Positions 34,501-37,500 of a DNA stretch of 64,000 bases are shown piece by piece. The position numbers are program-made. The stretch is from Mobula birostris (taxonomy: Eukaryota): positions 3,701,665 through 3,765,664 of the forward strand of contig NC_092384.1 in the NCBI RefSeq assembly GCF_030028105.1, read 5' to 3'. Numbering within the stretch: position 1 is the first letter of the stretch; each line of letters starts with the position of its first letter.

Positions 34501-37500
34501 GACAAGGGAAAACTGGAAAACCTGGAATACGGATCTCTCGACCGGAACGTGAACCGGAATGCAGGCTTCCCAGACATCCCGGCTAGTATCCTCCTGTGTA
34601 CATTAAGCTCCCTAATAAGATCTGACTTGTAATTCAACAACCAATCTAGGATGACCTTTCCGTAGTAGGTTCAAGCACAAGCTGCTCTAGGAAGCCATCT
34701 GGTAGGTATTCAACAAATTCCCTTTCTTGCGATCCGGGTCCAACATGATTTTCCTAATTCCTTGCATATTGAAGTCTCTTATTACAAATGTGTCATCCCC
34801 TTATTACACACCTTTTCAATCTCTCTTCGCAATCTCGACTCCACATATTATCCACTATTTGAGGGCCGATATAAGATTCCCATATTGTTTTTGTTTTAAC
34901 CTTTATAGTCTCTTGACTCCGACCACAAAGATTCATCAGTCTCTGATCCGATGTCACCTCTTTCTGAAGATGTAATCCCATCCCTTATCAACAGATATCA
35001 CCAACCGCTTATGACTTCCTGACTGTCTTGTCGATGTAAATTATATCCTCTGATGTTCAGCTTCCAACTAGGGGTTTCATTTAGCCATGACTCAGTGATA
35101 CCCACAACGTTGTACAGACAAGTGCGCCACAGGTTCGTCCACATTATTCCAAATGGTACGCACATTTAAATACAGGAACTTCAGTCCTGCATTGTTAATC
35201 CTTTTGAATTTTGCTTCTGTGGTACAATTTAACTCTTTGCTCCGTCTACAGTTTTTACCGTTTGTGTATTGTTAACTCTGCAAGAAGTGTTACAAATTTA
35301 GAGTGTTTGTTGCCGCAGAAGAACATGTGCCAGCCACAGAGTTGAATAATTCTAGGCAGTACACTAGGTCATTTTTCATCACCAGTAATATCAGCATTTG
35401 GGTGCTTTGATAAAATGACAATAATGACATTACATCACTGGCCGATTTCGAACGGATCTTGTTGCTTCTGGATTATGTAATCGCATTCGGTGCACCTGTT
35501 CAAACGCTGAGGATGAAATTAGTCACTTTTTATTTCCTCTAGTAGCAGCTGAAAATGATGAGACCTTAAGTCGCTACCAGGAAAATCAGGTAAGATTAAT
35601 ATTATTATGACATATATAGAGGTTTACATATTTTACACATACACCCTATATCAGTGGCACATAATTAGAGAAACGGAATGGCTGTCACTTTGCATGTAAC
35701 ACCTTGTGTTCTAGGATCGCATGGTTCATTTTTTGTTTTGTATCTCTGGCTTATGCAGTGCAGCATCTTCAGCGATTTATTTATTCAGAGGAGTTTCGCA
35801 AGGGCGATTCCAGGAATGAAAGCTGTATCACAAGAGGAAAGCTTGATGGCTCTGGGTCTGCACTTGCGGGAATTCAAAAGGCTGAGGTCGATATCATTGA
35901 AGCCTTTCGAATGTTGAAAGTCCAAGACAGAGTAGATTTGGAAAGGATGTTTTCCATGGTCGGAGAGTCTCGGCCAAGACAGTAAAGACTCAGGATAGAG
36001 GGGCGCCCTTTCAAAACAGAGATGTGGATTTTTTTTTTTTTTGTCGAATGTTGTGAATGTGTGGAATTTGTTGCCACATATCGCTGTGGAGGCAATTCAT
36101 TTCGTGTACTTAAGGTAGAGATGGGCAGGCTCTTGATTGAACATGGCATCGAAACTTACGGAAAGAAGGCTGGGTCTGGAGTTGAGGAGAAGAAAATAAA
36201 GTAGTAGGCATGGTTGAATGGCAGAGCAAACTCGAATGGCCAGATGGCTTAATTCTGCTCCTATGTCTTATGGTCTTCTGCTCTAATTGAGGAACTCATT
36301 AAGTTCTCCAAGATACTGCATTTGATATTTTGAACTAATCAGACTTGAGTCCCGTCATTTTCTAACTGGGCATTTGTACTAACAAAATAAAGGTCAGGAC
36401 AATAGCTAGTGCAGTGGCATGCAAAGGTTTAGGCACGCCTGGTCAAAATTTCTGTTACTGTGAATAGTTAAGCGAGTAGAAGATGAATTGATCTCCAAAA
36501 GTCATGAAGTTAAATATGAAACTTTCTTTTCAACATTTTAAGTTTAGAGTATTATTTTTGTTCTGTAAAATTTTAGAATGAAAAAAGGAAAGGATCGTGA
36601 TGCAAAAGTTTGGGCACCCTAAGAGACTTGAGCTCTCAGATAACTTTTACCAAGGTCGCAGACCTTAATTAGCCTGTTAGGGGTATTTCGTGTTTACAAT
36701 CATCGTTAGGAAAGGCCAAGTGATGAAAATGTTAGAGCTTTACAAATACCTTGACTCCTGAAACCTTGTCCCAATAATCAGCATCCTTGGGCTCCTCTAA
36801 GCAGCGACATAAAACTCTGAAAATTAAAATAAATGATGCCCACAAAGCAGGAGAAGGCTATAAGAAGATAGCAAAGCGTTTTTAAATAGCAGTTTCCTCA
36901 ATTCGTAATGTAATTAAAAGATGGCAGTTAACAGGAACGGTGAAGGTCAAGTTGAGGTCTTTGGAAGAGCACGAAAATTTTCCGTGAGAACTGCCAGTAG
37001 GATTGCAAGAAAGGCAAATGAAAGTCCCGTTTGACTGCAAAAGACCTTCAGGAAGATTTAGCAGACTCTGAAGTTTATATATACACACGAGCTCACCAAT
37101 TGTTTTGGAAAAAAAGACGTACTGGATTTTTTTTTCTGTATGCATTTGCATTTTCCAATTTCCGTCATGGTGATGATGCGTTTCATAGGAATATAACGCA
37201 CTTGGACCCGAAGAAGTTCCGAAAGATCTTGTTTTCTGGTCCGCAGCATGTTGGTATTTGCAGTGTTAATTGAGGTATAAAAATTGTTTTTCTCAGGCAT
37301 CGGAAAGACAAGATGTCGGCAGTCCTTCTTATGCGGATCTAAACTTTAAAAGCGATAATAAAAACAAGGAAGTCAGATCTGAAGCCGAACTCACTAATGC
37401 ACTGGTAAGATAAAAGAGAGAGTTCGCTGCACAAGTCAGTTTTCCAAAGTAGTGGATCAGCAGCTCCTTATCTCTAACTATTGTTTCCATAGATCATGCA

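What the first reader, a model, noticed from the sequence alone, without database searches (positions are those of the whole stretch)
35250..37413. Orphan but intact second set of cytoplasmic exons: swappable signalling tails?
Seen: Cyt1' and Cyt2' keep their splice sites, phases, frame and stop. The duplicated block starts at about 35250, matching about 9320, which is after the TM exon, and no V/C1/TM exon was found between 18.4 and 35.2 kb. The last 19 codons, stop and following bases of Cyt2 and Cyt2' are identical, while 5 residues differ around the YADL motif. Inference: gene 1 could use TM>Cyt1>Cyt2 or TM>Cyt1'>Cyt2' (or mixtures), giving one ectodomain alternative tails. Alternatively this is the remnant of a 5'-deleted paralog, or the missing exons are in the gap.
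Basis: partly seen in the sequence, partly recalled or inferred. Interest (0 to 1): 0.65.

Follow-up and report, generated by a model that had tools for sequence, protein, structure and literature searches.

The report
Stranded tail exons of ray receptor
Behind a manta-ray immune-receptor gene lies a second, intact set of its tail exons (three, not two) with no body exons in front, most likely the gene's older tail left stranded when a neighbouring gene's tail was shuffled in, which is a common event in such gene clusters.

Summary
The duplicate is real. 35266-38088 (+39319-39442) matches 9320-19173 at about 86%. Cyt1' (35546-35589) and Cyt2' (37297-37404) keep their splice sites, phase and frame. 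No other C1 or TM exon is in the window.

It lies in an intron behind a CTG|gtaaga donor. Annotated ray proteins splice Cyt2 to a third exon (18457-18624; primed copy 37493-37657) that carries the ITIM-like and ITSM-like tyrosines. Both tails have the same motif set, so swapping would not change the signalling class.

The primed tail is closest to the tail of Mobula hypostoma P0003 (95/104). P0003's V-C1 is also the best match to gene 1 (72/77, 88/96). Gene 1's used tail is identical to that of paralogue P0008 (105/105), whose V differs (53/77). Gene 1 therefore looks like a hybrid, and the primed cassette like its displaced original tail.

No protein in the collection carries the primed tail. 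Its use by splicing is untested, and the gap cannot be excluded. This is an ordinary product of receptor-cluster shuffling and of modest interest.

The parts
1..232 (+). Gene 1, 3' part of the V exon. The window starts inside it, and the leader and the first 48 residues lie upstream of the window.
   Evidence: tblastn: P0007 residues 49-125 = window 2-232, 77/77. The paralogous V exon matches V-set at E 3.5e-9.
7530..7817 (+). Gene 1, C1-set Ig exon (boundaries to within 1-2 nt)
   Evidence: Pfam C1-set E 3.7e-14. P0007 residues 126-221, 95/96. No second copy in the window.
9002..9112 (+). Gene 1, transmembrane exon (phase 1 at both ends)
   Evidence: Sequence read, frame, splice context. P0007 37/37, P0008 36/37, P0003 31/37. 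No second copy in the window.
9602..9645 (+). Cyt1 (proximal, annotated tail)
   Evidence: 14/14 to P0007 and P0008.
18261..18368 (+). Cyt2 (proximal), holds YADL and ends at the CTG|gtaaga donor
   Evidence: 36/36 to P0007 and P0008.
18457..18624 (+). It holds the ITIM-like LMYACV, the ITSM-like TEYAGI and the TGA stop. AATAAA lies at 18936.
   Evidence: Translation. 55/55 to P0007 and P0008. Poly(A) signal.
9320..19173 (+). Copy 1 of the homologous block, in pieces 9320-10663, 16785-17182, 18057-19056 and 19050-19173. A 6.1-kb repeat-rich insertion, 10664-16784, is absent from copy 2.
   Evidence: Self-blastn; identity profile.
35266..39442 (+). Copy 2 of the homologous block, in pieces 35266-36594 (85.7%), 36674-37069 (80.6%), 37085-38088 (86.6%) and 39319-39442 (82.4%)
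   Evidence: Self-blastn. The left breakpoint is sharp, with no homology upstream even at word size 7 or by local alignment.
35546..35589 (+). Cyt1' (primed); acceptor tag|CAG, donor CAG|gtaaga
   Evidence: 41/44 nt to Cyt1. 14/14 aa to M. hypostoma P0003 against 12/14 to gene 1.
37297..37404 (+). Cyt2' (primed), holds YADL.
   Evidence: 98/108 nt to Cyt2. 32/36 aa to P0003, 31/36 to gene 1.
37493..37657 (+). Cyt3' coding part (primed). The frame is open, it is one codon shorter than Cyt3, and it holds the ITIM-like LMYAFV, the ITSM-like TEYAGI and TGA at 37655-37657. AATAAA lies at 37969.
   Evidence: Translation. 150/168 aligned nt to Cyt3 with a 3-nt gap. 49/54 aa to P0003, 44/54 to gene 1. 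Poly(A) signal.
27466..27595 (.). Run of 130 N (gap or mask), not examined. It lies 7.7 kb upstream of the breakpoint.
   Evidence: Repeats on both flanks belong to a family also seen at 39.4-40.6 kb.
33320..34560 (+). Repeat element just upstream of the primed block. A relative is inserted at 38115-39291 inside the block's 3' flank, and a third lies at about 45.7-46.6 kb on the other strand.
   Evidence: Self-blastn, 75-83% identity.

Best explanation
The primed exons are the complete three-exon 3' end (Cyt1', Cyt2', Cyt3', poly(A) signal) of an inhibitory V-C1 immune-receptor gene of a devil or manta ray. A rearrangement breakpoint at 35265/35266, in the TM-Cyt1 intron, cuts them off from any V, C1 and TM exon.

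Gene 1 upstream is a mosaic. Its V and C1 exons are of the type that, in the sister species Mobula hypostoma, carries a primed-type tail (protein P0003). Its TM and used tail are those of another paralogue (P0008).

The most likely history is as follows. A segmental rearrangement (unequal crossover plus deletion, or a duplicative insertion) placed a P0008-type TM-tail cassette behind gene 1's V-C1. Gene 1's original tail was left stranded about 26 kb downstream of the TM exon.

Shown: the homology, the intact exons, the breakpoint and the mosaic identity pattern. Inferred: the direction and recency of the event, and that the stranded tail is now normally unused because transcripts end at the proximal Cyt3 poly(A) site.
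For: 1. Three-exon tail. P0007, the window's own annotated protein, and five further Mobula proteins join Cyt2 to Cyt3. Hemitrygon and shark relatives have the same three segments.
2. Reciprocal pattern, summed over the three exon peptides. Primed tail: P0003 95/104, P0005 88/104, gene 1 and P0008 87/104. Proximal tail: P0008 105/105, P0005 94/105, P0003 88/105.
3. Ectodomain. Gene 1 V against P0003 72/77 and against P0008 53/77. C1 against P0003 88/96, P0004 75/96 and P0008 82/96. TM against P0008 36/37 and P0003 31/37.
4. Sharp breakpoint. 5403-9319 has no match anywhere else in the window, and none upstream of 35266.
5. The cassettes are old paralogues: about 86% nt identity, dS 0.164, dN/dS 0.48. 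The proximal tail shows no protein difference from P0008's, which fits a recent transfer.
6. No record with the primed tail exists among 29-2000 aa representatives. P0006 and P0007 both use the proximal tail.
7. Precedent: human FCGR2C is an unequal-crossover hybrid, with FCGR2B-like first six exons and FCGR2A-like last two (passages read in PMC6786274).
Against: - The tail grouping rests on short peptides. By my eye count on the alignment, about 5 derived states are shared by the primed tail and P0003, against 2 shared by the proximal tail and P0005.
- TM exons are homogenised within each species, so the TM comparison is confounded. Tails could also have been exchanged by conversion.
- No DNA of the P0008 or P0003 loci could be seen, so the direction, date and mechanism are inferred.
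- A plain unequal crossover predicts a complete downstream gene, so a second deletion must be assumed.
- Every splice site of the primed exons is intact and the frame is open. By my count they carry 6 lineage-specific changes against 4 in P0003, which is no excess. Continued use is therefore not excluded.
Confidence: 0.45

Rival explanations
1. One reading: gene 1 has two alternative terminal cassettes. Transcripts that skip or read through Cyt1-Cyt3 and their poly(A) site splice TM (donor 9112) to Cyt1' (acceptor 35546). One ectodomain would then get two slightly different inhibitory tails.
For: All primed splice sites, phases, the frame, the stop and an AATAAA are intact. The phase-1 TM donor fits the Cyt1' acceptor exactly as it fits Cyt1. 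There is no excess of lineage-specific changes against the functional M. hypostoma tail (6 against 4, my count). dN/dS is 0.48. In M. hypostoma the orthologous ectodomain is annotated with a primed-type tail (P0003).
Against: No protein record carries the primed tail. Both annotated isoforms of gene 1 end in the proximal tail. Use of the distal tail would need read-through of a terminal exon and 17 kb of repeats, including a 2.1-kb satellite. The exons are hardly better conserved than the introns (89-93% against 79-90%), so intactness may only reflect youth. Both tails carry the same three tyrosine motifs, so the functional gain would be small. The label 'isoform X2' of P0003 need not mean a tail variant: other X1/X2 pairs in this family differ by one residue or by the C1 exon.
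Confidence: 0.2
2. An independent 5'-truncated paralogue. A separate neighbouring gene of the P0003/P0004 type lost its leader, V, C1 and TM exons by deletion or repeat-mediated rearrangement. Gene 1's own tail became P0008-like by unrelated gene conversion. The primed exons are a young unprocessed pseudogene fragment.
For: M. hypostoma has at least two genes with gene-1-like V domains (P0003 and P0004, each 72/77 to gene 1's V), so a second such gene next to gene 1 is plausible. The window also holds a partial leader-V duplicate at 57.5-59.9 kb, which shows that partial duplications happen in this locus. A repeat element sits directly upstream of the breakpoint.
Against: It needs two unrelated events (truncation, plus conversion over TM to Cyt3, which span 9.6 kb of DNA). 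It treats as coincidence that the stranded tail is of just the type that gene 1's ectodomain carries in the sister species. There is no disabling mutation.
Confidence: 0.2
3. Assembly artefact. The primed tail belongs to a complete gene whose leader, V, C1 and TM exons lie in the N run at 27466-27595 or were collapsed or misplaced by the assembler.
For: An N run of unknown true size lies 8 kb upstream. It is flanked by repeats in mixed orientation. Nearly identical tandem copies are prone to collapse.
Against: The 7.7 kb of contiguous sequence between the N run and 35266 holds no trace of the C1-TM region or of the first 207 nt of the TM-Cyt1 intron. In gene 1, TM lies only 490 nt before Cyt1. 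The whole 7.7 kb would therefore have to be an insertion placed exactly at the homology breakpoint.
Confidence: 0.1

Closest known systems
Elasmobranch V-C1 receptors that NCBI's pipeline names 'tyrosine-protein phosphatase non-receptor type substrate 1-like' (Mobula birostris, M. hypostoma), with relatives auto-named 'CD276 homolog', 'tapasin-related protein-like' and 'NCR3LG1-like' in Hemitrygon, Heptranchias, Heterodontus and Chiloscyllium
   Same: The primed exons are 81-89% identical (Cyt3') to the tails of these proteins. They share the three-exon layout, YADL, the ITIM-like LxYxxV and the ITSM-like TxYxxI.
   Different: The primed set has no leader, V, C1 or TM exon in front of it in the window. 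No record in the collection contains it.
Human FCGR2C, a hybrid receptor gene made by unequal crossover between FCGR2B and FCGR2A (PMC6786274, passages read)
   Same: Gene 1 has the ectodomain exons of one paralogue type and the signalling tail of another, inside a tandem receptor cluster.
   Different: In FCGR2C the swap changed the signalling class (the inhibitory versus activating nature of the two tails is recalled, not read). Here both tails are of the same inhibitory type. The old tail is still present downstream. The donor locus and the long paralogous repeats could not be examined.
Mammalian SIRP-alpha (the source of the automatic name)
   Same: It has a V domain with a J-like G-x-G-T strand followed by C1-set Ig, a single-pass TM and tyrosine-based inhibitory motifs. 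These SIRP features are recalled.
   Different: The ray proteins have one C1 domain, not two. SIRP is not among the 55 solved-structure matches of the V exon, nor among the 60 listed of 7704 for the C1 exon; the best are Ig heavy-chain constant domains, CD79b, TCR-alpha V and CD276. The tail has three tyrosines in another arrangement.
Receptors with alternatively spliced cytoplasmic tails (CEACAM1 long/short, CD46 Cyt1/Cyt2; recalled, not read here)
   Different: In those genes the alternatives differ in motif content and are documented by transcripts. Here the two cassettes have the same motifs, and no transcript evidence could be consulted.
UrIg / UrIg2, non-rearranging VJ-C1 genes of elasmobranchs (PMC12227049, abstract and passages read)
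   Same: A non-rearranging V(J) plus C1-set architecture in cartilaginous fish. UrIg2 is among the C1 exon's matches (9dmx, E 7e-14).
   Different: [quoted passage not shown] The words ITIM and SIRP do not occur in that paper. It is a different gene family.

Membership tests
Elasmobranch V-C1 inhibitory receptor family (auto-named SIRP-like) | Three-exon cytoplasmic tail (about 15, 36 and 55 codons; phase 1 entry from TM, phase 0 between the tail exons) | tested here: met
   Primed exons of 44, 108 and 165 nt, with the same splice sites and phases as gene 1. The segments align to P0003-P0009.
Elasmobranch V-C1 inhibitory receptor family (auto-named SIRP-like) | ITIM-like and ITSM-like tyrosines in the last exon (motif definitions recalled) | tested here: met
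   Cyt3' reads LMYAFV and TEYAGI. The Y, T and I/V positions are invariant in the six Mobula proteins.
Elasmobranch V-C1 inhibitory receptor family (auto-named SIRP-like) | Leader, V-set, C1-set and TM exons upstream in the same transcription unit | tested here: not met
   There is no such exon between 18.6 and 35.5 kb. The N run 27466-27595 was left unexamined.
SIRP family proper | V domain followed by two C1-set domains (recalled) | tested here: not met
   Full-length members have a single C1-set domain (361 aa). One C1 exon lies in gene 1.
SIRP family proper | Closest sequence relatives are SIRPs | tested here: not met
   No SIRP chain is among the 55 matches of the V exon, nor among the 60 listed of 7704 matches of the C1 exon.
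Hybrid receptor gene by unequal crossover or segmental duplication (FCGR2C type) | The 5' exons match one paralogue and the 3' exons another | tested here: met
   V 72/77 and C1 88/96 to P0003. TM 36/37 and tail 105/105 to P0008. Protein level only.
Hybrid receptor gene by unequal crossover or segmental duplication (FCGR2C type) | A long, nearly identical DNA segment shared with the donor locus, ending at a breakpoint | not testable with these tools
   The P0008 locus lies outside the window and no eukaryotic genome collection is on hand.
Gene with alternative 3'-terminal exon cassettes | Transcripts joining one upstream exon to either cassette | not testable with these tools
   No RNA data are available. 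The indirect evidence is that no protein record has the primed tail, and cluster members could not be listed.
Unprocessed pseudogene fragment | Disabling mutations (frameshift, premature stop, lost splice site) | tested here: not met
   The frame is open, the only length difference is a 3-nt in-frame gap, and all six splice sites are canonical. Truncation at 35266 is the only defect.

The most novel reading that the evidence does not exclude
The distal cassette is a working alternative end of gene 1. The manta-ray receptor would then be made with either of two inhibitory tails that differ at 17 residues, one of them inside the ITIM (C to F at Y+2). The sister species would use the distal type for the same ectodomain. 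That would be a tail-choice mechanism by tandem 3' cassettes in a cartilaginous-fish V-C1 receptor family that no paper found in my searches describes.
Probability: 0.17. Interest if true: 0.5.

Novelty: new member of a known kind. Interest (0 to 1): 0.3.

Why it matters
If my reading is right, this is a caught-in-the-act example, in a cartilaginous fish, of how immune-receptor clusters re-pair ectodomains with signalling tails. The replaced tail is still lying intact behind the hybrid gene. That is useful for annotating ray and shark receptor clusters, because orphan exons should not be taken for genes and a tail should not be ended at the Cyt2 donor. It also helps in dating such exchanges.

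It does not open a new mechanism. Hybrid receptor genes and stranded exons are familiar from mammalian FCGR (passages read) and KIR (recalled) clusters.

The family is a side result of some interest to comparative immunologists. It is V-C1, with inhibitory members and charged-TM short-tail members from rays to cow sharks. It seems to be known only from automatic names.

Tried and rejected
- UrIg identity was rejected. [quoted passage not shown]
- Membership in SIRP proper was rejected.
- I searched the window for the charged-TM, short-tail exon of the activating-type relatives (P0010, P0017, P0018). There was none.
- I made a sensitive search for a decayed TM exon or intron homology upstream of 35266 (word size 7 blastn, local alignment). 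There was none.
- I looked for colinear homology beyond 19173/39442. Only scattered repeats turned up, so this is not a simple 26-kb tandem duplication.
- A search for short protein fragments carrying Cyt3' (29-95 aa) found none.
This stays unchecked.
- In one search my Cyt3 and Cyt3' query peptides were one base out of frame through a coordinate slip. The frames were corrected. The V, C1, TM, Cyt1 and Cyt2 results are unaffected.
- Literature searches for a description of this family found nothing relevant.
No ray DNA other than the window could be compared.
The joined step (a search with joined Cyt1'+Cyt2'+Cyt3' or with TM joined to the primed tail) was left out.
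Full report
**What the window is.** It is vertebrate DNA rich in interspersed repeats. Two proteins that the protein collection marks as the window's own (P0006, 268 aa; P0007, 361 aa) lie on the same 86.2-Mb contig as a record that NCBI names from Mobula birostris. I therefore take the window for giant manta ray. It is not human.

The joined step (a search with the three primed exons joined, or with TM joined to them) was left out.

**Gene 1.** Mapping P0007 on the window gives these exons:
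- V exon, up to 232. The window starts at residue 49 of the protein.
- C1 exon, about 7530-7817.
- TM exon, 9002-9112.
- Cyt1, 9602-9645.
- Cyt2, 18261-18368.
- Cyt3, 18457-18624.

Pfam confirms V-set (E 3.5e-9, on the paralogous V exon at 60.5 kb) and C1-set (E 3.7e-14).

**Check of the observation.** Self-comparison shows these matches:
- 35266-36594 = 9320-10663 (85.7%)
- 36674-37069 = 16785-17182 (80.6%)
- 37085-38088 = 18057-19056 (86.6%)
- 39319-39442 = 19050-19173 (82.4%)

Cyt1' (35546-35589) and Cyt2' (37297-37404) have the same lengths, acceptors, gtaaga donors and phases as Cyt1 and Cyt2. Cyt2 and Cyt2' differ at 5 of 36 residues. A 72-nt identical run covers the last 17 codons of Cyt2 and 21 intron bases. 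A run that long has P of about 0.006 at 86% identity, so it points to a small conversion tract or to local constraint.

Region 5403-9319, which holds C1, TM and the first 207 nt of the TM-Cyt1 intron, matches nothing else in the window. Nothing upstream of 35266 matches it even with permissive settings. No family protein finds a further C1 or TM exon. So 'orphan' holds for the assembled sequence. The run of 130 N at 27466-27595 was left alone.

**The error in the observation.** P0007 and five other Mobula proteins continue from the end of Cyt2 into a third exon. That exon is 18457-18624 in gene 1 and 37493-37657 in the primed copy.

The primed copy is open and one codon shorter (a 3-nt gap). 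It ends in TGA and is followed by an AATAAA at 37969, as gene 1's is at 18936.

This exon carries the ITIM-like motif (LMYACV; LMYAFV in the primed copy) and the ITSM-like motif (TEYAGI in both). The motif definitions are recalled. The tail is therefore an inhibitory one, and both cassettes carry the same set: YADL, ITIM-like and ITSM-like. A swap would not change the signalling class.

**Is the primed copy under selection?**
- Exon identity is 41/44, 98/108 and 150/168. That is only slightly above the flanking non-coding sequence (78.7-89.8%).
- Summed over the exons, Nei-Gojobori gives dS 0.164, dN 0.079 and dN/dS 0.48 (Fisher P 0.05).
- This ratio describes the whole history of two old paralogous tails, not the present state of the primed one.
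- Counting by eye on the alignment, the primed tail has 6 lineage-specific changes (one of them the codon loss) against 4 in the functional M. hypostoma tail P0003. That is no excess.

**Where the primed tail belongs.** The table sums identities over the three exon peptides.

| Tail | P0003 | P0005 | P0008 | Gene 1 (P0007) |
|---|---|---|---|---|
| Primed | 95/104 | 88/104 | 87/104 | 87/104 |
| Proximal | 88/105 | 94/105 | 105/105 | 105/105 |

The ectodomain goes the other way.

| Gene 1 exon | P0003 | P0004 | P0008 |
|---|---|---|---|
| V | 72/77 | 72/77 | 53/77 |
| C1 | 88/96 | 75/96 | 82/96 |
| TM | 31/37 | 30/36 | 36/37 |

Gene 1 is thus a mosaic. It has a P0003-type V-C1 with a P0008-type TM and tail. 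A P0003-type tail lies stranded 26 kb behind the TM exon.

**Caveats.** The TM exon is homogenised within each species. The tail grouping rests on few sites.

**Best reading.** A rearrangement put a paralogue's TM-tail cassette behind gene 1's V-C1 and left the original tail downstream, cut at 35266. Human FCGR2C is the textbook parallel: an unequal-crossover hybrid of FCGR2B and FCGR2A (PMC6786274, passages read).

A plain unequal crossover would leave a complete gene downstream, so a further deletion or another mechanism must be assumed. A repeat element lies just upstream of the breakpoint, and a relative of it is inserted in the block's 3' flank.

**Use of the primed tail.**
- No representative protein of 29-2000 aa carries it. 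The best is 89% identical over Cyt3' (6 hits of 8 candidates), and there was no candidate at 29-95 aa.
- The clusters of P0006 and P0007 are listed with one member each.
M. hypostoma isoform X1 of P0003 therefore stays unseen.
- No RNA data were available, so alternative splicing from 9112 to 35546 is neither shown nor excluded.

**The gap hypothesis.** It needs the whole 7.7 kb between the N run and 35266 to be an insertion placed exactly at the homology breakpoint. I rate it low.

**Family context.** A profile of four named Mobula proteins found 16 proteins, with 8000 candidates scored. They come from Mobula, Hemitrygon, Heptranchias, Heterodontus and Chiloscyllium. They include forms that replace the TM and tail by a short C-terminus whose TM contains an arginine (P0010, P0011, P0017, P0018). 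This looks like a paired inhibitory/activating family. No exon of the charged-TM kind lies in the window.

The automatic names (SIRP-like, CD276 homolog, tapasin-related-like) are not memberships:
- The proteins have one C1 domain.
- No SIRP chain is among the solved-structure matches shown.
- UrIg and UrIg2 are a different family; nurse shark UrIg2 has nine C1-type domains.
- Three literature searches found no description of this family.

**Verdict.** The finding is real but mis-delimited, and it is ordinary in kind. It is an intact, stranded three-exon tail in a shuffling receptor cluster, and most likely the replaced tail of a hybrid gene. Interest is 0.3.

Noticed in passing
window 57519-58142 and 60221-60844 (+): Two leader-plus-V units lie 2.7 kb apart (leaders 57519-57572 and 60221-60274; V exons 57819-58142 and 60521-60844; 92% aa identity over the two ORFs). 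The second is colinear with gene 1's V exon and V-C1 intron (60616-64000 = 4-5402). The first is followed only by pieces of that intron. It is an orphan leader-V unit, the mirror image of the orphan tail. The profile search returned no window-marked protein other than P0006 and P0007.
   Followed up: partly
proteins P0010, P0011 (M. hypostoma), P0017 (Heptranchias), P0018 (Chiloscyllium): These family members have nearly the same V-C1 but a different, arginine-containing TM and a very short tail. This suggests paired inhibitory and activating-type receptors conserved from rays to sharks. I found no paper describing it.
   Followed up: partly
TM exon 9002-9112 and alignment A1 columns about 219-255: TM exons are nearly identical between paralogues within a species but differ at about 5 positions between M. 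birostris and M. hypostoma. This indicates concerted evolution of this exon.
   Followed up: partly
window 18318-18389 = 37354-37425: A 72-nt perfectly identical run spans the Cyt2 donor, inside blocks that are otherwise about 86% identical (simulated P 0.006). One residue in this stretch (E at Cyt2 position 25) is shared by both M. birostris cassettes but not by the other rays. This suggests a small conversion tract between the two cassettes.
   Followed up: partly
window 29404-31522: A G+C-rich satellite with a 37-bp unit, 57 copies and 96% matches. It is open in several reading frames only because of its periodicity.
   Followed up: no
window 10664-16784: A 6.1-kb repeat-rich insertion lies in gene 1's Cyt1-Cyt2 intron and is absent from the primed copy. 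It holds long ORFs that look by eye like LINE reverse transcriptase and transposase remnants; no family search was run on them.
   Followed up: no
window 26841-27716 and 39432-40630: The N run is flanked on both sides by repeats of a family that recurs, in mixed orientations, right after the primed block. The gap may sit in an inverted-repeat structure. The N run itself was not examined.
   Followed up: partly
proteins P0006, P0005 (no C1) and P0015 (no TM): Annotated isoforms skip the C1 exon (V joined to TM) in both Mobula species. In Heterodontus an isoform skips the TM exon. Exon skipping of whole domains therefore seems common in this family.
   Followed up: no
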